Shown here: positions 12,913-35,833 of the stretch, piece after piece
How positions within the stretch are numbered: the stretch's first letter is position 1
Layout of the letters: every line of letters begins with the position of its first letter
DNA from: Bacillota bacterium
Lineage (GTDB): Bacteria > Bacillota > Clostridia > Christensenellales > CAG-314
Assembly (NCBI GenBank): GCA_023458375.1
Contig: JAEWZT010000006.1
Span: 17,581 to 81,580 of the forward strand
Length of the DNA: 64,000 bases
Direction: 5' to 3'
The notes under the pieces: model-generated
Databases searched by the model: none
Told to the model about the DNA's origin: nothing
What the model saw: the letters and a program-made list of their open reading frames with translations, nothing else
Position numbers and translations under genes: made by a program

Positions 12913-14697
12913 CTATTCGCTTTTTAGCTCGCCCCTTATGCGCCTTACGCCGCTGCTGCTTGACTGTTCCTTTGTGATGAGGAATTTTCCCAGTTCGCCC
13001 GTGCTGTCGGCGTGGGGACCGCCGCAAATTTCCCTAGAAAAATCGCCCATAGAATATACTTTGACGACTTCGCCGTAGCGGTCGCCGAAAGTACCTATCG
13101 CCCCTCTTTTTTTGGCTTCCTCAACGCTCATTTCCTCAAAGGTAATTTTATAGTCCTTTTTAATGGCGTCGTTTACCATATCTTCCACTTTTTTTATTTC
13201 CTCTTCCGTAAGGGGTCTGTCAAAAGAAAAGTCAAAGCGAAGCCTTTCGGGGGTGATATTGCTTCCCCTTTGCTTTATGTCGGCGCCTAGCACGGCGCGC
13301 AAAGATTTGAGCAAAAGGTGCGTCGCCGTATGCAGCCGCGTCGTTTCAACGCCCGAATCGGCAAGACCCCCCTTAAAAGTGCCCTCTTCCGCCTTGCTTA
13401 CCTCTTGGTGAATTTTAAACCTGCTGTGATACCCTTCCGTGTCCACGCTAAAACCTTTTTCCTTGGCGTATTCAATGGTAAGTTCCAAAGGAAAACCGAA
13501 AGTATCGTAAAGCTTAAAGGCTACGCTGCCGGGAAGCACGCCGTCCTTAATAAAACCCAATACCTTATAAAACTCTTTTTCGCCCTGCGCCAGCGTGCGG
13601 AGAAACTTTTCCTCCTCTTTGTACAATTCCTCGGTTATACGGGTTTTATTTTCGGTAAGTTCGGGGTAAGCGTCTGTATAGTTTTCAATATAAAGCCCGG
13701 CAACCTGCGTAAGTCCGCCCTTTGCAATGCCTAAACCCTGCGCGTAACGCACCGCGCGCCTTATTAGGCGGCGCAAAATATACCCTTTGTCGGTGTTGCT
13801 TGGCGTAACGCCCATAACGTCGCCCATAATAAATACCGCAGTTCTTACGTGGTCGGCGATAATCCTCATTGCGCGCGTAGTTTCTTGGTCGGCGCCGTAG
13901 CTTTTGCCCGAAAGCTTTTCAATCAGCTGCACGGCGGGCAGAAAAGCGTCTATTTCGTAAACGGACTCAAAGCCGTTGAGAACGCGCACTACCCTTTCAA
14001 GCCCCATGCCCGTGTCCACGTTTTTTTGTTTTAAGGGAACATAACTGCCGTCGGCAAGCTTGTTAAACTGCATAAAGACGTTGTTCCAAATCTCCAAATA
14101 TTTGCCGCAAGAACAGGCGGGGGAACAATTGCCGCAGCAAGGCTCTTTACCCGTGTCGTAAAAGATTTCAGTGTCGGGACCGCAAGGACCCGTTGTCCCA
14201 GCTATCCACCAGTTGTGTTTTTTGGGCAGATAAAAAATTCTGTCTTTGGCGATGCCGCAGTCAAGCCAAGCCTTTGCCGATTCCTCGTCGCGCTCGCAGT
14301 CGCCGTCCCCTTCAAATACAGTTACGGCAAGCTTATTTTTGTCAAGCCCCAGCCACTCTTTGCCCGTTAAAAACTCGTAGCTAAACTCAATTGATTGCTT
14401 TTTAAAATAGTCGCCCAGCGACCAGTTGCCCAGCATTTCAAAAAAAGTGCAGTGGCTGCCGTCCCCCACTTCCTCAATGTCAACGGTTCTCACGCATTTT
14501 TGCACGTTGGCAAGGCGTGTTCCGCCGGGGTGTTTTTCGCCCAAAAGATAGGGAATAAGGGGGTGCATACCCGCCGTAGTAAACAGCACCGTAGGGTCGT
14601 TGTCGGGAATTAAGCTTGCGCTTTTTATAATGGTATGCCCTTTTGACTTAAAAAAATCTAAATAGATTTGCCTTAAAAATTTACTGCTGTATTTCAT
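12913..14697 (-). CDS. alaS: Alanine--tRNA ligase, short form (catalytic + tRNA-recognition + editing domains, no C-Ala domain)
   Basis: N-terminus FLDFFKSKGHTIIKSASLIPDNDPTVLFTTAGM...VQKCVRT.DIEEVGD..H.TFFEMLGNWS.GDYFK. Editing-domain zinc motifs HTATHLL and CGGPH lie near the C-terminus. The ORF stops about 30 aa later, at 594 aa. Confidence 0.9.
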   Translation of the reverse strand: MKYSSKFLRQIYLDFFKSKGHTIIKSASLIPDNDPTVLFTTAGMHPLIPYLLGEKHPGGTRLANVQKCVRTVDIEEVGDGSHCTFFEMLGNWSLGDYFKKQSIEFSYEFLTGKEWLGLDKNKLAVTVFEGDGDCERDEESAKAWLDCGIAKDRIFYLPKKHNWWIAGTTGPCGPDTEIFYDTGKEPCCGNCSPACSCGKYLEIWNNVFMQFNKLADGSYVPLKQKNVDTGMGLERVVRVLNGFESVYEIDAFLPAVQLIEKLSGKSYGADQETTRAMRIIADHVRTAVFIMGDVMGVTPSNTDKGYILRRLIRRAVRYAQGLGIAKGGLTQVAGLYIENYTDAYPELTENKTRITEELYKEEEKFLRTLAQGEKEFYKVLGFIKDGVLPGSVAFKLYDTFGFPLELTIEYAKEKGFSVDTEGYHSRFKIHQEVSKAEEGTFKGGLADSGVETTRLHTATHLLLKSLRAVLGADIKQRGSNITPERLRFDFSFDRPLTEEEIKKVEDMVNDAIKKDYKITFEEMSVEEAKKRGAIGTFGDRYGEVVKVYSMGDFSREICGGPHADSTGELGKFLITKEQSSSSGVRRIRGELKSE

Positions 14698-15192: not shown

Positions 15193-16179
15193 TTATCTTT
15201 CTATGTGCAACACTTTTTGGTCTTTTTTGCTTATCTTAAAGAAAAGCGAAAAGATATATGCTACAAACATATACGCCGCACACAAGTCAAAGAGCAAACC
15301 GACGGAAACTGCGCCCAGTCTGCTGTGTTTTAAAGTGCTGAACCAAACAAATATGTCGGCTAAAAAACTTGTGGAACCTTCCGCAATTTGCGCGCCGTAT
15401 TGCACTAGGTTTGCGAAAGCCGCGGCAAACACCGTTATAAACATAACGGCAAGCAGCAGCCCCTTTGACCTTTTTGCCCGTCTGCCGCTTATTAACTGCA
15501 CAAAGCCGCTGAAAAACTCAACGACTACGGTTAAAAGCGTCAAGGCGAAAACGCCCAAAATCACCCAATCCCAAACAGAGGAGGAACTAACGACGGAACT
15601 GATGTTGTTTATTATGTTTACTATGTATTTCCAGCCTGAAAAAGGCGAGCCGTTTATTTTAATAAAGCCAAAATCCAAACTTCCTACCGCTATAAAGGGG
15701 GGCATGAGTAAGAAATACGCCGCCGCCAGCGCCAAAACAATTGCAAAAAAGCCCGCCGCCCTTCCTTTTGACTTTCCGCCGCCTGCTTGCGCGACTTTAA
15801 CTTTACCTTTTTGTGCCCTTTGCGCAATGGCTTGCTGTGCCAAAGAAGCGCTGGCAACTTTTGCGCTGTGCGCCCCGTTTTTTGGGAAAGCGCTGCCCGT
15901 AGTTGAAAAGGCGTAACCGCATTTGTCGCAAATCGCGCTGTTGGCGTTTACGTTGTTGCTGCAACGGGGGCATATTTTTGTAGCCGTCCCGCCCACAAGC
16001 TTATTGCCGCAGGTTTTGCAGTAACTTGAACGTCCCGTATTTACCGTGTTGCACTTGCTGCAAACTACCGGCGTATCGGGCGATTTGAGTTGCGTGCCGC
16101 ATTGAAAGCAAAACTTGGCAACCATAGGGTTGGGGGTGTTGCATCTGGGGCATATATTAAAATTATTGAGGTTACTCAT
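15193..16179 (-). CDS. Zinc-ribbon (x3-4) membrane protein with about 5 TM helices
   Basis: CPRCNTPNPMVAKFCFQCG, CSKCNTVNTGRSSYCKTCG and CPRCSNNVNANSAICDKCG are followed by hydrophobic helices. I moved the start to ATG 16179 (MSNLNNFNICPRC), preceded by GGGAGGAAAT. The track's longer ORF overlaps the upstream gene. Confidence 0.7.
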   Translation of the reverse strand: MSNLNNFNICPRCNTPNPMVAKFCFQCGTQLKSPDTPVVCSKCNTVNTGRSSYCKTCGNKLVGGTATKICPRCSNNVNANSAICDKCGYAFSTTGSAFPKNGAHSAKVASASLAQQAIAQRAQKGKVKVAQAGGGKSKGRAAGFFAIVLALAAAYFLLMPPFIAVGSLDFGFIKINGSPFSGWKYIVNIINNISSVVSSSSVWDWVILGVFALTLLTVVVEFFSGFVQLISGRRAKRSKGLLLAVMFITVFAAAFANLVQYGAQIAEGSTSFLADIFVWFSTLKHSRLGAVSVGLLFDLCAAYMFVAYIFSLFFKISKKDQKVLHIER

Positions 16180-16192
16180 AATTTCCTCCCTG

Positions 16193-17050
16193 TTATTTGG
16201 ATAGTTTAACACCACATTTGGTGCAAAAGGCGCTGGTTTTTTCATTGAGATGACCGCATTTACAGCGGAAAAGTTCCTCTTCCGCCTTATCTTTTTTAGT
16301 AAAAGAATAGCGGCATCTGTTGCAGTATTCCGCGTCGTAGGCGTTTTCCGCCCCGCAAAGATAGCAGTATTTTTTATGTAAAAAGACCGCCAGTCTCATT
16401 CCGCATTTGACGCAAAACTTTTTGTTTAAGTCGTTTGCCGTTCCGCATTCGGGGCAAAGACGGCTTTTTTTGTTGGTGGAAGATTTGAGGACTGCAATAA
16501 TCAGCCCGTCTTCTTCCTCGGCTTTTTGGTGTTCAATTAAAAACTCGTCAAAGTCCGCCCCTTCAAGAGAATAAAAGCAAAAGGTGCAGTTAACCGCCGA
16601 CATTGCATTAATACCCTTGCAGTGAGGACATATTTTCTTTTTTGTAAGGCGCCCGTTAGCTTGACCCGTAACATCGCTGCCGCAGCGTATGCAAAACACG
16701 TCAGATTCGCTTAATGTCTGACCGCACACCCCGCAGATAATCGCCTCTTCCCTCTGTTCTACCTCTTGTTTTTGTGGCTGTTCTTGGGGAAGCATAATTC
16801 CCCCGCCTGTTTCAGCTTGCTGAATTTTGGGCGAAAGGGTAGCGGGGTTAAAGCTTTGAGGCAGCGCGGCGCTTTCTTCCTTTAAAACCTCGCCGCAATT
16901 GGGACAAAAAACAGAGTTTGCGCCAATCTTTTGACGGCAGACGGAACACGTTATAACGGCGTTTTCCTCAAACTTTTTTTCGCCGCAGTTATTGCAAAAC
17001 GCGCTGTCGTCGCTATTTAATTCGCCGCATGACGCGCACTTTTTGGTCAT
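16193..17050 (-). CDS. Soluble protein made of about 8 tandem zinc-ribbon (CxxC-n-CxxC) units
   Basis: Repeated units include CASCGELNSDDSAFCNNCG, CSVCRQKIGANSVFCPNCG, CGVCGQTLSESDVFCIRCG, CPHCKGINAMSAVNCTFC, CPECGTANDLNKKFCVKCG, CYLCGAENAYDAEYCNRC and CKCGHLNEKTSAFCTKCG. Confidence 0.7.
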   Translation of the reverse strand: MTKKCASCGELNSDDSAFCNNCGEKKFEENAVITCSVCRQKIGANSVFCPNCGEVLKEESAALPQSFNPATLSPKIQQAETGGGIMLPQEQPQKQEVEQREEAIICGVCGQTLSESDVFCIRCGSDVTGQANGRLTKKKICPHCKGINAMSAVNCTFCFYSLEGADFDEFLIEHQKAEEEDGLIIAVLKSSTNKKSRLCPECGTANDLNKKFCVKCGMRLAVFLHKKYCYLCGAENAYDAEYCNRCRYSFTKKDKAEEELFRCKCGHLNEKTSAFCTKCGVKLSK

Positions 17051-23454: not shown

Positions 23455-23484
23455 TTGACCCTTAATTAAAGATAAATATATAAT
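23455..23484 (+). promoter_or_regulatory. Sigma-A-type promoter candidate for the NifU-like / GGGTGRT operon
   Basis: TTGACC (23455..23460), 18 nt spacer, TATAAT (23479..23484), about 38 nt upstream of the ATG. Confidence 0.5.
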
Positions 23485-23522
23485 ATATTTAGCGCTAAAC
23501 TATCTAAAAAGGAGATAACAGT

Positions 23523-24218
23523 ATGCCTAACTATACACATGAAGTTGAAGGAATGGTATGCGTCAGAAAAGGGTGCGATCACGGACCCTCCCCCATTCCG
23601 CAGGAAGGAAGCTGGACGCAGGCAAGAGAAATTAAAGACATAAGCGGCTTAACGCACGGCGTAGGTCGCTGCGCCCCTCAGCAGGGCGCCTGTAAGTTAA
23701 CGCTAAATATAAAAAACGGCGTAATTGAAGAGGCTTTAATAGAAACCATAGGCTGTTCGGGTATGACGCACAGCGCCGCAATGGCAGGGGAAATTTTAAC
23801 GGGAAAGACGATTTTGGAAGCGCTCAATACCGACCTTGTCTGCGACGCCATAAATACCGCAATGCGGGAGTTGTTTTTGCAAATTGTTTACGGCAGGTCG
23901 CAGTCGGCTTTTTCCGACGCGGGGCTTCCCGTAGGCGCGGGGTTAGAAGACCTCGGCAAAGGCATGCGCTCGCAAGTGGCGACAATTTACAGCACCGCCA
24001 AAAAGGGCGTGCGCTATTTAGAGGACACCGAAGGCTATATAACCAAGCTTGCCCTTGACGAAAAGGGGGAAATAATAGGTTACGAATACGTTAATTTAGG
24101 AAAACTTATGGAAGAAGTGCAAAAAGGCGCTTGCGGAAACGACGCTTTGGAAAAAGCCAAGGGTCGTTACGGCAGATTTGACGAAGCGGTTAAAGTTATT
24201 AACCCGCGCAAAGAGTAG
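23523..24218 (+). CDS. NifU/IscU-like Fe-S scaffold-fold protein with an uncharacterised ~100-aa C-terminal extension
   Basis: GVGRCAPQQGACKLTLNIKNGVIEEALIETIGCSGMTHSAAMAGEILTGKTILEALN..LVCDAI follows the IscU pattern (Cys in the first loop, GC-x-x, a helix, a late Cys). AAGGAG RBS. Confidence 0.6.
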   Translation: MPNYTHEVEGMVCVRKGCDHGPSPIPQEGSWTQAREIKDISGLTHGVGRCAPQQGACKLTLNIKNGVIEEALIETIGCSGMTHSAAMAGEILTGKTILEALNTDLVCDAINTAMRELFLQIVYGRSQSAFSDAGLPVGAGLEDLGKGMRSQVATIYSTAKKGVRYLEDTEGYITKLALDEKGEIIGYEYVNLGKLMEEVQKGACGNDALEKAKGRYGRFDEAVKVINPRKE

Positions 24219-24228
24219 GAGAAAAGCT

Positions 24229-25221
24229 ATGATTACCTTTGAAAACTACGACAGAAGAATAAAAAATATCAACGCCTTTCTTAACGCGAAGGGCATAAAA
24301 GACTTAGCGGAAGCGCACCAAATCTGTTTAAACAGGGGCGTTGACTGCGAAAAAATCGTGAAAGGAATACAAACCATAGCCTTTGACGACGCAGTTTGGG
24401 CTTACACGGCAGGCTGCGCCGCCGCGATTAAAAGAAATGTTAAAAACGCCGAAGAAGCGGCAAAAGTAATAGGCGAGGGGTTGCAGGCTTTTTGTATCAG
24501 CGGAAGCGTGGCAGACCACAGACAAGTGGGTATAGGGCACGGAAACTTAGCGGCGATGCTGCTAAACGAAAACACAAAATGCTTTGCTTTTTTGGCGGGG
24601 CACGAAAGCTTTGCGGCGGCGGAAGGCGCAATAGGCATAGCGCGCACGGCAAACAAAGTGCGTAATATTCCCTTAAAGGTAATTTTAAACGGTTTGGGCA
24701 AGGACGCGGCGTATATTATAAGCCGCATAAACGGCTTTACTTATGTTCAGACGCAATTTGACCGCCAAAAGGACGAGCTTATTGTTGTAGGAAACGTTGA
24801 GTTCAGCAAGGGCGAAAGAAATAAGATACTCTGCTACGGCGCCGACGACGTAAGCGAGGGTGTAGCCATTATGATACGCGAAAGCGTTGACGTATCTATT
24901 ACGGGCAACAGCACCAACCCCACCCGTTTCCAGCACCCCGTAGCGGGCACATATAAAAAATGGGCTATTGAAAAGGGCAAAAACTACTTTTCGGTGGCAA
25001 GCGGCGGCGGCACGGGCAGAACGCTTCACCCTGACAATATGGGCGCAGGTCCCGCAAGCTACGGCTTGACGGATACCATGGGCAGAATGCACGGCGACGC
25101 TCAGTTTGCGGGCAGCTCCTCAGTCCCCGCTCACGTAGAAATGATGGGATTTATAGGCATGGGCAACAACCCCATGGTAGGCGCAACGGTTGCCTGCGCG
25201 GTGGCGGTAGTAACCCCGTAA
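24229..25221 (+). CDS. Conserved hypothetical protein carrying a GGGTGRT motif ('GGGtGRT protein' family, by recollection)
   Basis: SVASGGGTGRTLHPDNMGAGPASYGLTDTMGRMHGDAQFAGSSSVPAHVEMMGF. The start is reset to ATG 24229 (MITFENYDRR), preceded by AGGAG. The track's TTG/ATG extension overlaps the upstream gene. Confidence 0.6.
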   Translation: MITFENYDRRIKNINAFLNAKGIKDLAEAHQICLNRGVDCEKIVKGIQTIAFDDAVWAYTAGCAAAIKRNVKNAEEAAKVIGEGLQAFCISGSVADHRQVGIGHGNLAAMLLNENTKCFAFLAGHESFAAAEGAIGIARTANKVRNIPLKVILNGLGKDAAYIISRINGFTYVQTQFDRQKDELIVVGNVEFSKGERNKILCYGADDVSEGVAIMIRESVDVSITGNSTNPTRFQHPVAGTYKKWAIEKGKNYFSVASGGGTGRTLHPDNMGAGPASYGLTDTMGRMHGDAQFAGSSSVPAHVEMMGFIGMGNNPMVGATVACAVAVVTP

Positions 25222-25439
25222 AATATCCAATTAAAACTTTGTTTTAATTGGGACCCCGAAATAAACCTTACAAAATCTGCGGATTTTGAAAACCCGCCGA
25301 CAGTATCTCCTAAACTGTTTATGGCAATCCAAAAGATAACACACTTTGTATTACGATTTAACGGGGAATAACCGCAAAAACAAGATTAGCGCAATGCAAA
25401 TATCTTTATCGGCTAATATTTAAAAAAGAAAATCGCAAA

Positions 25440-25470
25440 GCCGCTTGAAAATACTTCAAGCGGCTGTTTT
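25440..25470 (+). terminator. Intrinsic terminator of the NifU-like / GGGTGRT operon
   Basis: GCCGCTTGAA-AATAC-TTCAAGCGGC followed by TGTTTT. Confidence 0.7.
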
Positions 25471-26014
25471 ATGCTTATCTTTTAATTTTACCTTTGCTTT
25501 TTAAATATTTTATTTGTTAAATAGTTTTGCTTTGAGCGTTGGGTATCGCGGCTAGTCGGGCATTTTGTTTAATCGCATTTTTAATTTTTCCGTATTTTTG
25601 GCGGCGGCGTTTTTATTAACAGTCTTATTAAGCATAATCCGTCGTATCGCACAAAACTTAAATTAAATTAACAAACATTATTTTAAAGCATTTAATACAT
25701 AATCTTTGTGAAAAGCGCGCTTATACTTTTAAATACAAAAAATAACAGGCAAGACGGCATCTTTTATTTTTTTACGCCGCTTTGTTGCGGCACTTCGGGG
25801 AAAATATTTATTACTGATTTAGCTTTGAAGTTTTAAGGCGGCGCTTACCTATATAATTCTTTTGCCATTACATTCAAAGCGGCTTTAAGCAGCTTTATTC
25901 TCGCATTACCACCCTGCTCAAAGCGCGTTTGCCCAAACAAAAAAACGGGAACAAGTCCCGAAATTCTTAAAAGGCTATAAAGATAGTTTTTACCATATTT
26001 TCTTTCGTATAAAA

Positions 26015-26050
26015 CCAAAAAAACGGTTAAAGCAAAGTAAAAAAACCGTT
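26015..26050 (-). terminator. Terminator-like hairpin after the RluA-family gene
   Basis: On the minus strand: AACGGTT-(15 nt)-AACCGTT followed by TTTTTTT. The upstream arm overlaps the stop codon. Confidence 0.4.
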
Positions 26051-31610: not shown

Positions 31611-32297
31611 ATGGCTAACTGTCAAATTTGTGGTAACACAAGCGGATTTTATCCTTTATGTAAAAATTGTTTTAAATTAAAAGATGAAAACAAAATTGAG
31701 AAATGCGAAAAATGCAACACATGGCATTTCACAGATAAATCTTGTAAGTGTGAAAAGAAAGTAGTAGCTTTGGATGCGGAAAAAACACAAAACAGTTGCA
31801 TTATTTGCAAGAGCGATACCGAGGGTTTCTTATTTTGTAAAAAATGTTATCATAAATATAAAAATAAAATAATTCTACTCAAAATCTCAAGGTGCACCGA
31901 AATAGAATTGATGGACGAAGCATACGAAGGCAAATATATTTGTGCTGACGGACATATTGTTAAAAGCAAATCAGAGCGGGATATTGACAACTACTTATAT
32001 TACAATAAAATCCGTCACGCTTATGAAAAAGCGCTTCCTATCGATGATAATCCCGACCATGACTTGCACCCCGATTTTTATTTACCTGAATATCAAGGAG
32101 AAGAAATCTGGCTTGAGCATTGGGGATACGATGAAAGCAACCAACAATACACAGAACAAAAAGAATATAAACTTGCGCAATATAAAAAAGCAGGCATTAC
32201 TTTAATTTGTACGGATGAAAAGAAAGATATATCAGATATTACCGCCGCTTTAGACCGCAAGCTTAAAATGCGTAAAAAAGGTGAAGTAAATCTGTGA
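31611..32297 (+). CDS. Hypothetical protein: three N-terminal CxxC-n-CxxC zinc ribbons + a C-terminal PD-(D/E)xK-like (Vsr / DUF2726 / helicase-IV-N-terminal-like) nuclease fold
   Basis: The N-terminal ribbons are CQICGNTSGFYPLCKNC, CEKCNTWHFTDKSCKC and CIICKSDTEGFLFCKKC. The C-terminus is KSKSERDIDNYLYYNKIRHAYEKAL......HPDFYLPEYQGEEIWLEHWGY. It matches the S-x-x-E...Y-E...PDF-x-L...(I/L)E-h-x-G pattern of restriction-endonuclease-like folds. The gene is visibly AT-richer than its flanks. AAGGAAG RBS. Confidence 0.6.
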   Translation: MANCQICGNTSGFYPLCKNCFKLKDENKIEKCEKCNTWHFTDKSCKCEKKVVALDAEKTQNSCIICKSDTEGFLFCKKCYHKYKNKIILLKISRCTEIELMDEAYEGKYICADGHIVKSKSERDIDNYLYYNKIRHAYEKALPIDDNPDHDLHPDFYLPEYQGEEIWLEHWGYDESNQQYTEQKEYKLAQYKKAGITLICTDEKKDISDITAALDRKLKMRKKGEVNL

Positions 32298-32518: not shown

Positions 32519-32786
32519 GCTGTGCTAGGCGGGGAGCTAGTGGTGCCCTGTCGTCCGCAACCCACTACAGCGGAGCTGAATGTCCGATTTGCGGCTACGG
32601 CGTGGGAAGCGTGGAGCAAGTAAGGAGCGTTGACGCCAAGGTCTCGTGCAACGGTTAGCCGTGAAACGTGTCAGGGAGGAATCAGCAGCACTAAGCGGAT
32701 TTAGCCGTGTGTTACGAGGAAGCTTTGGAATAGCCGCCTGCTTGCATACCTGTTCGGCGTTGGCAGTCAAAGCGGAATGCACAGCC
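32519..32786 (+). ncRNA. ffs: Signal recognition particle RNA, large Bacillus-type (scRNA with Alu domain)
   Basis: GCTGTGCTAGGCGGGGAGCTAGTGGTGCCCTGTCGTCCGCAACCC matches the B. subtilis scRNA Alu-domain region GUGCUAGAUGGGGAGGUAGCGGUGCCCUGUACCUGCAAUCC. GTCAGG-GA-GGAA-TC-AGCAGC is the domain IV helix 8 motif with the GGAA tetraloop. The 3' GCACAGC pairs with the 5' GCTGTGC. Ends are accurate to about +/-5 nt. Confidence 0.9.
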
Positions 32787-34614: not shown

Positions 34615-35526
34615 TTAACCGTATTGCGAAAGGATTTTTTTAGCGGAAGAAAAAATGGCGGCGCGCAGTTCTTCGGGCTTTATTACCTCAATTTTGCCGC
34701 AAAAAGAAAGCAGCCTGCTTATTAAAAACTCGTCAAAGGGCAATGTGGCATAAGCGGCGTAACCGTCTTTGGTCTTTATTACCGAATCTACGCCAAGCCA
34801 TTCTTCCACCTCCGTAAGGGCGGAAGGCAAAAGCTTAATACAAAAATCCACGCCGCGCGATTTTTTAGGCGCTTCAAGGGCGCGCGCGCCGTCAATGTCG
34901 TATGGCAAGGGTTCAAAATATTCCTCAGTCAAATCCAAAGAAGCTATGCGGCTTACCTTAAAAAACCTGTAATCGCCGCGCAGCCTGCAAAACGCATAGA
35001 TATACCATAATCCTTCTTTAAGCACCATACAGCAAGGCAAAAGGTCGCGGAGGGTGATTTCCCCTTTCGCGTCGTGGTATTCAACTCGGCAAACCCTAAG
35101 TTCCACCACCGCCTTTGTTAAAAGCGCCAAATTGTGCTGCATTTGAGGCGTAGTGGGCGCGTCCACCAAAAGCTGGCCGCTCTTTAAAGTGTAGTCCGCG
35201 TGCAGCCCCCTTGAAAGCGATTTTACTTTGTCGGCAACGCTAAGCGTCAGTTTGTCCTGCACGTCAAAAGCCGTTACCGATTGAACCAGCCTTGTATATT
35301 CTTCCGAAGTAAAAAAAGCGGCGTCAAGCTTGAAACTGTCTTTTATGGAAAAGCCGCCGTGCTTGCCGCTTACGGAATAAACGGGCACCCCTGCGGCGTT
35401 TAAAGTATCAATGTAGCGGTAAACGGTGCGCGACGATATTTCGTATTTAATGGAAAATTCTTTGGACGTTACCGTCTTTCTGTCCAAAAGCGTTAAAAGC
35501 ATTCCTAGAATCACTGCGTTTTGCAA
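34615..35526 (-). CDS. YafY-family transcriptional regulator (wHTH + WYL domain)
   Basis: The HTH is LLTLLDRKTVTSKEFSIKYEISSRTVYRYIDTLNAAGVPVYSVSGKHGGF. The WYL domain is GLWYIYAFCRLRGDYRFFKVSRI. My preferred start is TTG 35526, 8 nt after AAAGGAGA. ATG 35502 is an alternative. The track ORF to 35733 runs through the divergent promoter. Confidence 0.8.
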   Translation of the reverse strand: MQNAVILGMLLTLLDRKTVTSKEFSIKYEISSRTVYRYIDTLNAAGVPVYSVSGKHGGFSIKDSFKLDAAFFTSEEYTRLVQSVTAFDVQDKLTLSVADKVKSLSRGLHADYTLKSGQLLVDAPTTPQMQHNLALLTKAVVELRVCRVEYHDAKGEITLRDLLPCCMVLKEGLWYIYAFCRLRGDYRFFKVSRIASLDLTEEYFEPLPYDIDGARALEAPKKSRGVDFCIKLLPSALTEVEEWLGVDSVIKTKDGYAAYATLPFDEFLISRLLSFCGKIEVIKPEELRAAIFSSAKKILSQYG

Positions 35527-35588
35527 AAAATATCTCCTTTTTTTAAAAAATATTTTTATATGCTGACATACAGTTGTCATATATACAA

Positions 35589-35597
35589 TGGTATAAT
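35589..35597 (+). promoter_or_regulatory. Extended -10 promoter element (TGGTATAAT) for the divergent small ORF
   Basis: TGGTATAAT at 35589..35597, about 40 nt upstream of ATG 35639. I found no good -35 box. Confidence 0.4.
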
Positions 35598-35638
35598 ACA
35601 GGTATAAAACGGGTTTGTCAATAAGGGAGGGAATAAAA

Positions 35639-35833
35639 ATGAAATACGACATAAAGGAAATTGAGAAAAAGCTGTTTAGCAACGTAATACCTAAAAGTAT
35701 GGCGGGCTTTGATATCGCAGCGTTTTTGAGCAAATACGGCGGCGAAAATAAACGCCAAGCTACCGTCGTGCGCCCAAAGGAAATTCAAGCCGTTTTTGAA
35801 AGCAGAAACATTGCGAGTAACAGCGGATATTAA
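35639..35833 (+). CDS. Hypothetical 64-aa protein, divergent from the WYL regulator
   Basis: MKYDIKEIEKKLFSNVIPKSMAGFDIAAFLSKYGGENKRQATVVRPKEIQAVFESRNIASNSGY. A strong RBS AGGGAGGGAATAAAA precedes ATG 35639. I recognise no family, and it may be a truncated remnant. Confidence 0.45.
   Translation: MKYDIKEIEKKLFSNVIPKSMAGFDIAAFLSKYGGENKRQATVVRPKEIQAVFESRNIASNSGY

What the first reader, a model, noticed from the sequence alone, without database searches (positions are those of the whole stretch)
23455..25470. Self-contained two-gene operon of unknown function: NifU/IscU-like protein plus a GGGTGRT-motif protein
This is the only plus-strand unit in a roughly 30-kb run of minus-strand genes. It has its own TTGACC-18-TATAAT promoter, two AGGAG ribosome-binding sites, a 10-nt intercistronic gap and a clean terminator (GCCGCTTGAA/TTCAAGCGGC + T-run).

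Gene 1 (231 aa) has an IscU-like core with cysteines at scaffold-like positions (GRC/GAC, GCSG, LVCD). It also carries two extra N-terminal cysteines (CVRKGC) and about 100 C-terminal residues that match nothing I recognise.

Gene 2 (330 aa) carries SGGGTGRTLHPDNMGAGPASYGLTDTMGRMHGD, plus His-rich motifs (GIGHGNLAAM, AGHESFAAAEGA). From memory, automated annotation names a family after the GGGtGRT motif, and I know of no assigned biochemical function for it.

Tight coupling to an Fe-S scaffold paralogue suggests a metal- or cluster-dependent enzyme, or a dedicated cofactor-maturation pair. I rank this the best candidate for an undescribed system in the window.
Basis: partly seen in the sequence, partly recalled or inferred. 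Interest (0 to 1): 0.72.

Follow-up and report, generated by a model that had tools for sequence, protein, structure and literature searches.

The report
Iron-sulfur protein pair, candidate missing enolase
This two-gene operon encodes a strongly conserved, abundant, iron-regulated protein pair of anaerobic bacteria whose function is unknown, and indirect genomic evidence suggests it may be the unidentified substitute for the glycolytic enzyme enolase in gut and rumen bacteria that lack it.

Summary
Window 23455-25470 is a self-contained plus-strand operon with a promoter, two ribosome-binding sites, a 10-nt gap and a terminator. It encodes a 231-aa IscU-fold protein and a 330-aa GGGtGRT protein (PF14057, E=1e-182).

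The two genes are adjacent in 79 of 79 informative genomes from at least seven phyla, at 63-78% identity. Neither has a solved structure or a known activity. The family and the pairing are already catalogued, for example as B. thetaiotaomicron BT0173-4, so the object is a new member of a known but uncharacterised kind.

Four leads point to one step of glycolysis:
- **Fluoride control.** Fluoride riboswitches sit in front of the pair in 21 loci, at least five lineages, once together with pyrophosphatase.
- **Mutase neighbours.** A divergent subfamily lies in operons with bona fide phosphoglycerate mutases.
- **Iron and abundance.** The pair is iron-regulated and very abundant.
- **Missing enolase.** The pair occurs in taxa reported to include enolase-negative genomes (Segatella, Oscillibacter, Endomicrobia) or close relatives of them (Pseudobutyrivibrio).

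My best explanation, at about 0.4, is a two-subunit iron-sulfur 2-phosphoglycerate dehydratase, a non-homologous enolase. No biochemical test exists and none of this is direct evidence.

The parts
23455..23484 (+). Sigma-70-type promoter TTGACC-18 nt-TATAAT
   Evidence: Matches 11 of 12 consensus positions, the best site in the region.
23510..23514 (+). Ribosome-binding site AGGAG of gene 1, 8 nt before the ATG
   Evidence: Read directly from the sequence.
23523..24218 (+). Gene 1, 231 aa. It has an IscU-fold core (about residues 40-123) with conserved C50, C57, C78, C107, H45 and H83. Two conserved segments (20-32 and 124-149) are modelled with low confidence. The C-terminal domain (150-231) has no known relative.
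   Evidence: Pfam NifU_N scores 22.3 bits against a threshold of 22. NCBIfam IscU/NifU equivalogs score far below their cut-offs. Foldseek matches IscU and SufU at probability 0.9-1.0 over about 100 residues. Conservation is from 77 orthologues. More than 8000 homologues of about 230 aa exist.
24217..24221 (+). Ribosome-binding site AGGAG of gene 2, overlapping the gene 1 TAG stop codon. The intercistronic gap is 10 nt, consistent with translational coupling.
   Evidence: Read from the sequence. Gaps in 79 other loci are 0-74 nt.
24229..25221 (+). Gene 2, 330 aa, a GGGtGRT-family protein. It has an N-terminal helical domain (7-112) and a Rossmann-like alpha/beta domain (118-257). The invariant motifs AGHESFAAAEGA, NGLGKD, TGNSTNP and SGGGTGRTLHPDN follow the ends of its strands. 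The C-terminal part carries MGRMH and AGSSSVPAHVEMMG.
   Evidence: PF14057 E=1e-182, covering 324 of 327 model positions. AF2 model has pTM 0.82, but residues 258-298 are below pLDDT 50. No PDB sequence or fold relative was found. 43% of positions are at least 97% conserved.
25439..25475 (+). Intrinsic terminator: an 11-bp stem (6 G-C pairs), a 5-nt loop and a T-rich tail
   Evidence: Terminator scan. The only Rfam match here is a weak, sub-threshold RcsR1 hit.

Best explanation
The operon encodes the two subunits of an oxygen-sensitive, iron-sulfur-dependent hydro-lyase that interconverts 2-phosphoglycerate and phosphoenolpyruvate. That would make it a non-homologous, isofunctional alternative to Mg-enolase.

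Proposed mechanism:
- The IscU-fold subunit (gene 1) holds a permanent cluster on its conserved cysteines. C50, C78 and C107 are kept in every sequence examined; C57 is dispensable in Vibrio. The cluster acts as a Lewis acid on the C3 hydroxyl, as in aconitase, class I fumarase and Fe-S serine dehydratase.
- The GGGtGRT subunit (gene 2) provides a Rossmann-like substrate pocket. Its glycine-rich loops and invariant Arg, Lys and His residues would bind the phosphate and carboxylate.
- The most conserved segments of both proteins are disordered in the monomer models and would close over the shared site.
- In this window the operon is made constitutively from a strong promoter.

Shown: operon structure, pairing, conservation, IscU fold, absence of known relatives, iron regulation, fluoride-riboswitch and phosphoglycerate-mutase linkage, and taxon overlap with enolase-negative bacteria.

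Inferred: complex formation, cluster type, substrate and reaction.
For: 1. **Mutase operons.** A divergent subfamily (55% identical to gene 2) lies in a tight operon: ApgM, gene 1-like, GGGtGRT, an unknown 317-332 aa protein, then a histidine phosphatase. This was seen in 4 of 4 subfamily clusters with enough flanking DNA (L083, L103-106, L107, L109). The ApgM proteins pass the NCBIfam equivalog cut-off for 2,3-BPG-independent phosphoglycerate mutase (517 and 491 bits against 489). L107 adds a GpmI-type mutase (656 bits against 331). Phosphoglycerate mutase makes the substrate of enolase.

2. **Fluoride riboswitches.** Rfam-threshold fluoride riboswitches lie in the 5' leader of the pair.
   - They occur in 5 of 79 genome loci, and these are the only fluoride hits in about 735 kb scanned.
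   - They occur in 16 further metagenome loci.
   - Together they fall in 5-11 sequence clusters.
   - In L029 the riboswitch also drives inorganic pyrophosphatase.
   - In L088 and L092 the pair sits beside a second riboswitch that controls MutS-related genes and, in L092, a Na+/H+ exchanger.
   - Enolase is the classical fluoride target. Enolase and pyrophosphatase are among the genes most often placed under this riboswitch (PMC11139923).

3. **The missing-enolase gap.**
   - The complete Oscillibacter valericigenes genome has no enolase although the strain ferments glucose, and its authors postulated an 'alternative enolase-like enzyme' (PMC3558957).
   - About half of the sequenced Butyrivibrio strains, as well as some Prevotella and Lachnospiraceae, are enolase-negative, and no complementing gene gain was found (PMC6118326).
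   - The gap was still open in 2024 (PMC11187502).
   - The same absence is called 'perplexing' in Endomicrobia, Treponematales, Bacteroidales symbionts and Clostridiales (PMC11257099).
   - The pair is present in Oscillibacter, Dysosmobacter, Endomicrobium and Endomicrobiellum, in Pseudobutyrivibrio and Eubacterium ruminantium and in Segatella copri.
   - S. copri DSM 18205 is reported enolase-negative. S. copri JCM13464, which from my own knowledge is the same type strain, makes GGGtGRT as a 35-kDa antigen.
   - A substitute that both enolase-positive and enolase-negative strains carry would explain why gene-gain comparisons found nothing.

4. **Abundance and conservation.** Both are at the level of a glycolytic enzyme. 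Identity is 63-78% across at least seven phyla. [quoted passage not shown]

5. **Iron regulation**, as expected for an Fe-S isozyme that has a metal-independent backup. It falls 11-13-fold in iron-starved B. thetaiotaomicron and is 7-fold higher with iron in C. pasteurianum. Fur-family and FeoA genes are neighbours in three loci.

6. **Genetics.** Transposon insertions in BT0173-4 were recovered with pfkA in a screen for loss of glucose-dependent Cur inhibition. Growth on glucose was normal.

7. **Sequence features.** The labile-ligand Asp and His of scaffold IscU are replaced (K58, V106), which argues for a stable cluster.
Against: - No biochemical data exist and every line of evidence is circumstantial.
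- I could not tabulate genome by genome whether enolase-negative genomes carry the pair. The overlap is at genus or strain level and comes from the literature.
- Some enolase-negative groups, such as Saccharibacteria and Endomicrobiellum lineages without glycolysis, may lack the pair and need other explanations.
- The mutase linkage is seen only in the divergent subfamily, which sits in mobile-element-like contexts. The main family has no conserved neighbours.
- Other contexts point to Fe-S assembly or redox stress: the suf operon in Collinsella, and TlpA, OsmC and nitroreductase in Parabacteroides.
- An IscU fold acting as a catalytic cluster carrier has no precedent that I know of.
- The B. 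thetaiotaomicron phenotype is only 2-fold.
- The GGGTGRT loop region is modelled with low confidence, so no active site could be inspected.
Confidence: 0.4

Rival explanations
1. The pair is a two-subunit iron or Fe-S enzyme of central phospho-carbon metabolism, but it is not an enolase. It would act on another phosphorylated C3 or sugar metabolite, for example 3-phosphoglycerate or phosphoserine chemistry, 2,3-bisphosphoglycerate, phospholactate or a sugar phosphate. Alternatively it is a fluoride-sensitive phosphoryl-transfer enzyme that is overproduced to compensate for inhibition.
For: - The same mutase, fluoride and pyrophosphatase linkage applies.
- The histidine-phosphatase gene in the subfamily operon suggests that a phosphorylated product is then dephosphorylated.
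- serC, serA and DUF1015 lie divergently next to the pair in Avelusimicrobium.
- Phosphoketolase lies 3 nt downstream in L054, and DXS 29 nt downstream in L002.
- Weak Foldseek matches are all to sugar-phosphate- or nucleotide-binding Rossmann-like folds: PFK, eIF2B-like, GmhA and lumazine synthase.
Against: - It does not explain why enolase can be lost repeatedly in exactly these taxa.
- No specific alternative reaction is missing from these organisms as conspicuously as enolase.
- The Foldseek matches are not significant (E at least 0.07, TM at most 0.26).
Confidence: 0.28
2. The pair is a dedicated Fe-S cluster assembly, carrier, repair or cofactor-maturation module. Gene 1 would be a specialised IscU-type scaffold and gene 2 its partner, serving a client enzyme or general Fe-S supply.
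For: - Gene 1 has the IscU fold and the three canonical cysteine positions.
- Collinsella has sufB, sufD, sufS and sufU directly upstream of the pair, separated only by a transposase.
- Fur-family and FeoA genes are neighbours in three loci.
- Down-regulation under iron starvation resembles the E. coli isc operon (this comparison is my own knowledge).
- In the subfamily operon the pair could mature the metal-dependent mutases.
Against: - No cysteine desulfurase recurs next to the pair in the 80 genome loci.
- Scaffold hallmarks are missing: the labile-ligand Asp is K58, His105 is V106, there is no LPPVK motif, and scores are far below the IscU/NifU equivalog cut-offs (27 against 188 bits).
- Both proteins are among the more abundant cell proteins, which is unusual for a scaffold.
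- 70-78% identity across phyla and 330 residues of invariant loops look like a catalytic site.
- Fluoride-riboswitch control is not known for Fe-S assembly genes.
Confidence: 0.15
3. The pair is an abundant redox, stress or iron-storage protein of anaerobes, comparable to rubrerythrin or the IssA thioferrate store. It would have no role in carbon metabolism.
For: - It is iron-regulated and abundant.
- It is found almost entirely in anaerobes, plus facultatively anaerobic Vibrio.
- Neighbours include OsmC, TlpA and nitroreductase, rubredoxin and Hcp with a Crp/Fnr regulator.
Against: - These neighbours are sporadic.
- It does not explain the mutase operons or the fluoride riboswitches.
- There is no similarity to Hcp (hhalign probability 0.1%).
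- The Rossmann-like domain with conserved strand-end loops looks like a ligand-binding enzyme.
Confidence: 0.08

Closest known systems
GGGtGRT protein family (Pfam PF14057) with its 'NifU' partner, e.g. Bacteroides thetaiotaomicron BT0173-BT0174
   Same: - Gene 2 is a full-length member (E=1e-182).
- The partner gene, gene order and spacing are the same.
- The protein is abundant and iron-regulated.
   Different: Nothing essential differs. This copy has a lineage-specific CVRKGC near the N-terminus of gene 1 and no riboswitch. The family has no assigned function; a 2025 paper states that its function and role remain unclear (PMC12078515).
Enolase (EC 4.2.1.11; Pfam PF00113/PF03952)
   Same: - It catalyses the proposed reaction, 2-phosphoglycerate to phosphoenolpyruvate.
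- It follows phosphoglycerate mutase in the pathway.
- It is a frequent fluoride-riboswitch target.
- It has glycolytic-level abundance and conservation.
   Different: - There is no sequence or fold similarity.
- Enolase is a single Mg-dependent TIM-barrel protein.
- This is a two-subunit, probably Fe-S protein with an IscU fold plus a Rossmann-like fold, found almost entirely in anaerobes.
- The relation proposed is 'works like', not membership.
Two-subunit, oxygen-labile [4Fe-4S] hydro-lyases of anaerobes: L-serine dehydratase SdaAA/SdaAB, class I fumarate hydratase, tartrate dehydratase TtdAB (my own knowledge)
   Same: - Subunit sizes are similar: a small one of about 220 aa and a large one of about 300 aa, from adjacent genes.
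- The chemistry is the same type, dehydration of a beta-hydroxy acid.
- A non-Fe-S isofunctional enzyme exists alongside, as class II fumarase does for class I.
- Expression is iron-dependent.
   Different: - No Pfam hit to those families.
- The cluster would sit on an IscU fold rather than on the catalytic subunit.
- Cluster type and stoichiometry are unknown.
IscU/NifU/SufU Fe-S scaffold proteins (PF01592; TIGR01999, TIGR03419, TIGR01994)
   Same: - The fold of residues 40-123 matches (Foldseek probability up to 1.0).
- Cysteines occur at or near the three ligand positions.
   Different: - Scores are far below the equivalog cut-offs.
- There is an extra conserved cysteine (C50).
- The Asp and His ligands are replaced.
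- There is about 40 aa of N-terminal extension and about 110 aa of C-terminal extension.
- No desulfurase neighbour recurs.
- The protein is always coupled to GGGtGRT.

Membership tests
GGGtGRT family (PF14057) | Full-length match to the family profile above the gathering score | tested here: met
   606.8 bits against 27, covering residues 4-327 and 324 of 327 model positions.
GGGtGRT family (PF14057) | The eponymous GGGtGRT motif and the flanking invariant motifs | tested here: met
   SGGGTGRTLHPDN, MGRMH and AGSSSVPAHVEMMG are present and invariant in 79 orthologues.
GGGtGRT / NifU-like conserved pair | A 220-230 aa IscU-like gene lies immediately upstream on the same strand | tested here: met
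   The gap is 10 nt here. It is 0-74 nt in 79 of 79 informative loci, which span Bacillota, Bacteroidota, Elusimicrobiota, Fusobacteriota, Desulfobacterota, Actinomycetota and Chitinispirillales.
IscU/NifU Fe-S assembly scaffold | Score above the curated family cut-offs | tested here: not met
   Pfam NifU_N is borderline (22.3 against 22). TIGR03419 scores 26.9 against 187.9, TIGR01999 21 against 192.4 and TIGR01994 18.7 against 92.5.
IscU/NifU Fe-S assembly scaffold | Three conserved cluster-ligand cysteines | tested here: met
   C57 (or C50), C78 and C107 are conserved in at least 75 of 77 sequences and align to IscU ligand regions. Vibrio has C57 replaced by Ala.
IscU/NifU Fe-S assembly scaffold | A labile fourth ligand (Asp after the first Cys, His before the last Cys) and the LPPVK chaperone-binding motif (features recalled from my own knowledge) | tested here: not met
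   The sequence reads GACK (K58) and LVCD (V106). There is no LPPVK.
IscU/NifU Fe-S assembly scaffold | Genomic association with a cysteine desulfurase | tested here: not met
   No neighbour family recurs among the 80 genome loci besides the pair itself. The only case found is the suf operon upstream in Collinsella.
Enolase superfamily | Homology to the enolase N- and C-terminal domains | tested here: not met
   No Pfam, NCBIfam, PDB sequence or fold hit to enolase for either protein.
Enolase (function) | Catalysis of 2-PG to PEP | not testable with these tools
   Supported only by context: mutase operons, fluoride riboswitches and taxon overlap with enolase-negative bacteria.
Fluoride regulon | A fluoride riboswitch in the 5' leader | tested here: not met
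   There is none in this window. It is met for homologous operons in 21 other loci.
Anti-phage defence systems (PADLOC) | A match to any defence-system protein model | tested here: not met
   No hits for the window pair or for the subfamily operon proteins.

The most novel reading that the evidence does not exclude
The NifU-like/GGGtGRT pair is the long-sought non-homologous replacement for enolase. It would be a previously unknown class of two-subunit iron-sulfur 2-phosphoglycerate dehydratase, widespread in anaerobes. Its presence would explain why enolase has been lost repeatedly in rumen, gut and termite-gut bacteria, and why some lineages switch the pair on with a fluoride riboswitch.
Probability: 0.4. 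Interest if true: 0.92.

Novelty: new member of a known kind. Interest (0 to 1): 0.8.

Why it matters
Enolase is regarded as universal, and its absence from many Butyrivibrio, Prevotella/Segatella, Oscillibacter, Endomicrobia and other host-associated anaerobes has been an open puzzle since 2010. Reviews were still calling it unresolved in 2024.

If this pair supplies the activity:
- a gap in the core glycolytic map of major gut and rumen bacteria would be closed;
- metabolic models that currently gap-fill enolase would be corrected;
- a new Fe-S enzyme class and a new catalytic use of the IscU fold would be defined;
- one of the most abundant 'unknown' proteins in gut metaproteomes would gain a function;
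- the fluoride link would suggest a fluoride-insensitive bypass of the classical fluoride target.

Even if the enolase idea is wrong, the pair is a very highly conserved, highly expressed, iron-dependent protein complex with no known relatives. The fluoride and phosphoglycerate-mutase associations found here give concrete starting points for experiments.

Tried and rejected
- **Conserved neighbours in the main family.** I clustered all ORFs in the 80 loci. Nothing recurs beyond the pair; cytidine deaminase, BMP lipoprotein and sigma factor genes are lineage-specific.
- **Remote homology of gene 2.** phmmer and a family profile against PDB sequences gave nothing. Foldseek against the PDB gave a best E of 0.07 and TM at most 0.26. 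The trypanosome PFK hits (probability 0.8-0.9) cover only a generic Rossmann layer and I rejected them as evidence of homology.
- **Exhaustive representative search.** It found only three full-length 50%-identity clusters. The rest were fragments or chimeras, and no link to another family appeared.
- **Relation to hybrid-cluster protein or CODH.** This was suggested by weak Foldseek hits and an Hcp neighbour. hhalign gave probability 0.1%.
- **Natural gene 1-gene 2 fusions as evidence for a complex.** The longer database entries are assembly duplications or frameshifts.
- **Pyruvoyl-type self-cleavage at AGSSS.** I considered this from the motif alone. The 35-kDa antigen size in S. copri fits the uncleaved protein, so I did not pursue it.
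- **Anti-phage defence role for the mobile-element-borne subfamily operon.** PADLOC gave no hits.
- **Riboswitch or small RNA in this window's leader or 3' region.** Only a sub-threshold RcsR1 match over the terminator.
- **Prior report of the fluoride-riboswitch/NifU link.** None was found in the searchable library. The original riboswitch gene tables (Baker et al. 2012) could not be read.
- **P0408 and P0409.** These apparent subfamily members lack the mutase context and look like extended or chimeric calls.
Full report
**1. The observation**

- Gene 1 (23523-24218, 231 aa) and gene 2 (24229-25221, 330 aa) lie on the plus strand and are separated by 10 nt.
- A TTGACC-18-TATAAT promoter at 23455-23484 matches 11 of 12 consensus positions. 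A hairpin with a T-rich tail lies at 25439-25475.
- Both genes have AGGAG ribosome-binding sites. The second overlaps the stop codon of gene 1.
- The flanking genes are minus-strand housekeeping genes: VanW-domain, PHP, RluA-type pseudouridine synthase, a SAM methyltransferase, IleRS, and further out DnaB, GlnRS/GluRS and an AlaRS-like gene.
- The 'only plus-strand unit' statement holds for about 28 kb. The next plus-strand features are an ORF at 31611-32297 and SRP RNA at 32520-32784.
- One coordinate note: gene 2 starts at 24229. Translating from 24230, the coordinate I first entered, reads out of frame.

**2. Identity of the proteins**

Gene 2 is a full-length member of Pfam PF14057, 'GGGtGRT protein' (E=1e-182).
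- It has no NCBIfam model.
- It has no PDB relative by sequence or by family profile.
- It has no significant PDB fold match (best E 0.07, TM at most 0.26).

Gene 1 barely reaches the NifU_N threshold (22.3 against 22 bits). It scores far below every IscU, NifU or SufU equivalog cut-off. Its model nevertheless matches IscU and SufU structures over residues 40-123 (Foldseek probability 0.9-1.0). Its last 90 residues match nothing.

**3. The pairing and conservation**

I fetched the 80 best of 416 confirmed genome loci.
- In 79 of them a gene 1 homologue lies 0-74 nt upstream on the same strand. The remaining locus has no upstream DNA.
- The loci come from Clostridia, Bacilli/Erysipelotrichales, Bacteroidota, Elusimicrobiota, Fusobacteriota, Desulfobacterota, Coriobacteriia and Chitinispirillales.
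- Other searches add Negativicutes, a Methanobacteriaceae MAG, and Vibrio and Persicobacter replicons.
- Identity to the window proteins is 69-78% for gene 2 and 63-78% for gene 1.
- 43% of gene 2 positions and 35% of gene 1 positions are at least 97% conserved.
- An exhaustive search of 1.8 billion cluster representatives found only three full-length 50%-identity clusters. The family is very tightly constrained and has no visible distant relatives.

Conserved residues:
- In gene 1, C50, C57, C78, C107, H45 and H83 are nearly invariant.
- Vibrio has Ala at position 57, which leaves three cysteines kept in every sequence examined.
- In gene 2, H104, H125, H267, H288 and H302 and the Gly-rich motifs are kept even in the divergent subfamily. 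C89, C118 and H236 are not.

**4. Structure models**

The gene 2 model has pTM 0.82.
- It has a helical N-terminal domain (residues 7-112) and a Rossmann-like alpha/beta domain (118-257).
- Each invariant motif (AGHES, NGLGKD, TGNSTNP, SGGGTGRT) directly follows a beta-strand. This is the usual position of a ligand-binding crest. That reading is my inference from the secondary structure and the conservation.
- The most conserved stretch, 258-298, is modelled below pLDDT 50.

In gene 1 the conserved segments 20-32 and 124-149 fall within regions modelled below pLDDT 50. This would fit segments that order only in a complex or around a cofactor, but the alignments were shallow. No multimer prediction was available.

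**5. What was already known**

The family is named but uncharacterised. A 2025 paper states that its function and role remain unclear (PMC12078515).
- B. thetaiotaomicron BT0173-4 is this same pair. It falls 11-13-fold under iron depletion (PMC10434189).
- Transposon insertions in BT0173-4 were isolated together with pfkA in a screen for loss of glucose-dependent Cur inhibition. The effect was 2-fold and growth on glucose was normal (bioRxiv 10.64898/2026.04.10.717545).
- In C. pasteurianum the protein is 7.1-fold higher with iron (PMC5395762).
- It is highly expressed in vivo in distantly related gut anaerobes and is detected in the rumen metaproteome (PMC11204068 and PMC7035244).

**6. New lead A: fluoride**

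I scanned 79 of the genome loci (about 735 kb) with Rfam at gathering thresholds.
- There were five fluoride riboswitches, and every one lies in the 5' leader of the operon that contains the pair.
- The loci are L013, L014 and L019 (Erysipelotrichaceae), L035 (Eubacteriales) and L029 (Clostridiales).
- L014 and L035 show the usual terminator-type expression platform.
- In L029 the riboswitch drives inorganic pyrophosphatase, then gene 1, then gene 2.

A metagenome scan for the 3' arm of the aptamer followed by gene 1 codons returned 17 loci.
- 16 of them have an Rfam-threshold fluoride aptamer at the site.
- All 17 encode gene 1; gene 2 follows wherever the contig extends far enough (16 of 17).
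- Riboswitch-bearing operons fall in 11, 8 or 5 clusters at 10, 15 or 20% divergence of gene 1.
- In L088 and L092 the pair adjoins a second fluoride riboswitch. It controls MutS-related genes and, in L092, a Na+/H+ exchanger.

Fluoride riboswitches switch on exporters and fluoride-sensitive enzymes, notably enolase and pyrophosphatase (PMC11139923). This window's own operon has no riboswitch.

**7. New lead B: phosphoglycerate mutases**

A divergent GGGtGRT subfamily is 55% identical to gene 2, and its members are 63-79% identical to each other. It keeps the IscU-like partner.
- It lies in a tight operon: ApgM, gene 1-like, GGGtGRT, an unknown 317-332 aa membrane-anchored protein, then a histidine phosphatase. 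This is seen in L083, L103-106 and L109.
- L107 has the pair, the unknown protein and a GpmI-type mutase. An ApgM and a histidine phosphatase lie on the other strand.
- The ApgM proteins pass the NCBIfam equivalog cut-off for 2,3-BPG-independent phosphoglycerate mutase, and the GpmI does so by a wide margin.
- All four subfamily clusters with enough flanking DNA show this arrangement.

Phosphoglycerate mutase produces 2-phosphoglycerate, the substrate of enolase. From my own knowledge, pgm and eno are classically adjacent in the Bacillus and Clostridium gap operons.

**8. New lead C: the missing enolase**

A literature search showed that a missing enolase is a recognised gap, and that the affected taxa overlap those that carry the pair.
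- Oscillibacter valericigenes has a complete genome and ferments glucose, yet has no enolase. Its authors postulated an 'alternative enolase-like enzyme' (PMC3558957).
- About half of the sequenced Butyrivibrio strains, as well as some Prevotella and Lachnospiraceae, are enolase-negative. Enolase-negative strains are under 0.5% of more than 30,000 isolates, and no complementing gene gain was detected (PMC6118326).
- A 2024 review says it is still unclear what substitutes (PMC11187502).
- In Endomicrobia the absence is called 'perplexing'. It is also reported for Treponematales and Bacteroidales symbionts and for Clostridiales (PMC11257099 and PMC12483993).
- S. copri DSM 18205 is reported enolase-negative (bioRxiv 10.64898/2026.06.02.729653).

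The pair is present in several of these groups:
- Oscillibacter and Dysosmobacter, and Endomicrobium and Endomicrobiellum;
- Pseudobutyrivibrio and Eubacterium ruminantium;
- S. copri JCM13464, where it is a 35-kDa antigen. JCM13464 and DSM 18205 are the same type strain; this is my own knowledge.

A substitute that both enolase-positive and enolase-negative strains carry would explain two things: why enolase can be lost, and why gain-of-function comparisons found nothing.

**9. Synthesis**

The most economical reading is a two-subunit, oxygen-labile Fe-S hydro-lyase that catalyses 2-PG to PEP. Dehydration of a beta-hydroxy acid is standard chemistry for [4Fe-4S] hydro-lyases. These often coexist with metal-independent isoenzymes and are spared under iron limitation (both points are my own knowledge).

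I give this reading about 0.4. The rivals are:
- another phospho-metabolite enzyme (about 0.28);
- an Fe-S assembly or maturation module (about 0.15), supported by the suf neighbourhood in Collinsella and by Fur and FeoA neighbours;
- a redox, stress or storage protein (about 0.08), supported by OsmC, TlpA, nitroreductase and rubredoxin neighbours.

Against the scaffold reading:
- no desulfurase neighbour recurs;
- the scaffold's labile ligands are replaced;
- the protein is abundant;
- gene 2 carries an extensive set of invariant loops.

**10. Limits**

- There is no biochemical evidence.
- There was no genome-by-genome test of enolase against PF14057.
- The mutase linkage is confined to a subfamily in mobile-element-like contexts.
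- The motif loop is poorly modelled.
- The fluoride riboswitch could equally mean that the pair is a fluoride-sensitive enzyme or a fluoride-insensitive bypass.

**11. Verdict**

The object is a new member of a catalogued but functionally unknown family. The work here turns it into a specific, testable candidate for a long-standing gap in anaerobic glycolysis.

Noticed in passing
window 32520-32784 (+): Bacterial large SRP RNA (RF01854, 147 bits). It is the only Rfam gathering-level hit in the whole window.
   Followed up: no
window 31611-32297 (+): A 228-aa plus-strand ORF with no Pfam hit, just upstream of the SRP RNA. It is the next plus-strand coding candidate after the operon.
   Followed up: partly
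window 25222-26050: About 830 nt without a convincing gene between the operon and the minus-strand RluA-like gene. It holds an AT-rich perfect hairpin right after the gene 2 stop (25227-25251) and a minus-strand terminator-like hairpin (25279-25297). The plus-strand terminator at 25439 therefore lies beyond it, so the convergent transcripts would overlap.
   Followed up: partly
window 15193-17050 (-): Two adjacent genes (350 and 285 aa) encode multiple double-zinc-ribbon (DZR) domains. Their function is unknown.
   Followed up: no
window 12913-14697 (-): A 594-aa protein with the AlaRS catalytic core and the SAD domain (tRNA-synt_2c plus tRNA_SAD). This is much shorter than a normal AlaRS.
   Followed up: no
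window 34615-35733 (-): A regulator with HTH_11, WYL and WCX domains, next to MurG and PRPP synthetase genes.
   Followed up: no
L092 6282-6351 (-) and L088 3673-3744 (+): A second fluoride riboswitch lies close to the pair: immediately after it in L088, and after an intervening MFS transporter gene in L092. It controls two MutS-domain-V proteins (about 550 and 495 aa) and, in L092, a Na+/H+ exchanger. Together with the pair these form a small fluoride-response cluster.
   Followed up: partly
L103 8005-8958; L083 6992-7972; L107 2067-3065; L109 3808-4770: A conserved 317-332 aa protein with N-terminal transmembrane helices and no Pfam, NCBIfam or PADLOC hit. It is always encoded directly after the divergent GGGtGRT gene, sometimes overlapping it by 4 nt, and before a histidine phosphatase or GpmI gene. 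The operon sits near transposase, HTH, YodL and AAA_5 genes, which suggests a mobile element.
   Followed up: partly
L111 7257-7976 (Vibrio sp. THAF191d replicon): The gene 1 homologue of a facultatively anaerobic Vibrio has Ala in place of the otherwise near-invariant C57 (CAPQQGAAK). This leaves three cysteines that are kept in every sequence examined.
   Followed up: partly
L112 1-8000 (Collinsella aerofaciens): sufB, sufD, sufS and sufU lie directly upstream of the pair on the same strand, interrupted only by a transposase gene. This is the only Fe-S assembly neighbourhood found.
   Followed up: partly
L087 1475-5746: A hybrid-cluster protein (Hcp), a 512-aa partner and a Crp/Fnr-type regulator lie just upstream of a riboswitch-controlled copy of the pair.
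   Followed up: partly
L029 8507-8606 (-): A guanidine-I riboswitch (85.6 bits) lies on the same contig as the operon of fluoride riboswitch, ppa, gene 1 and gene 2.
   Followed up: no
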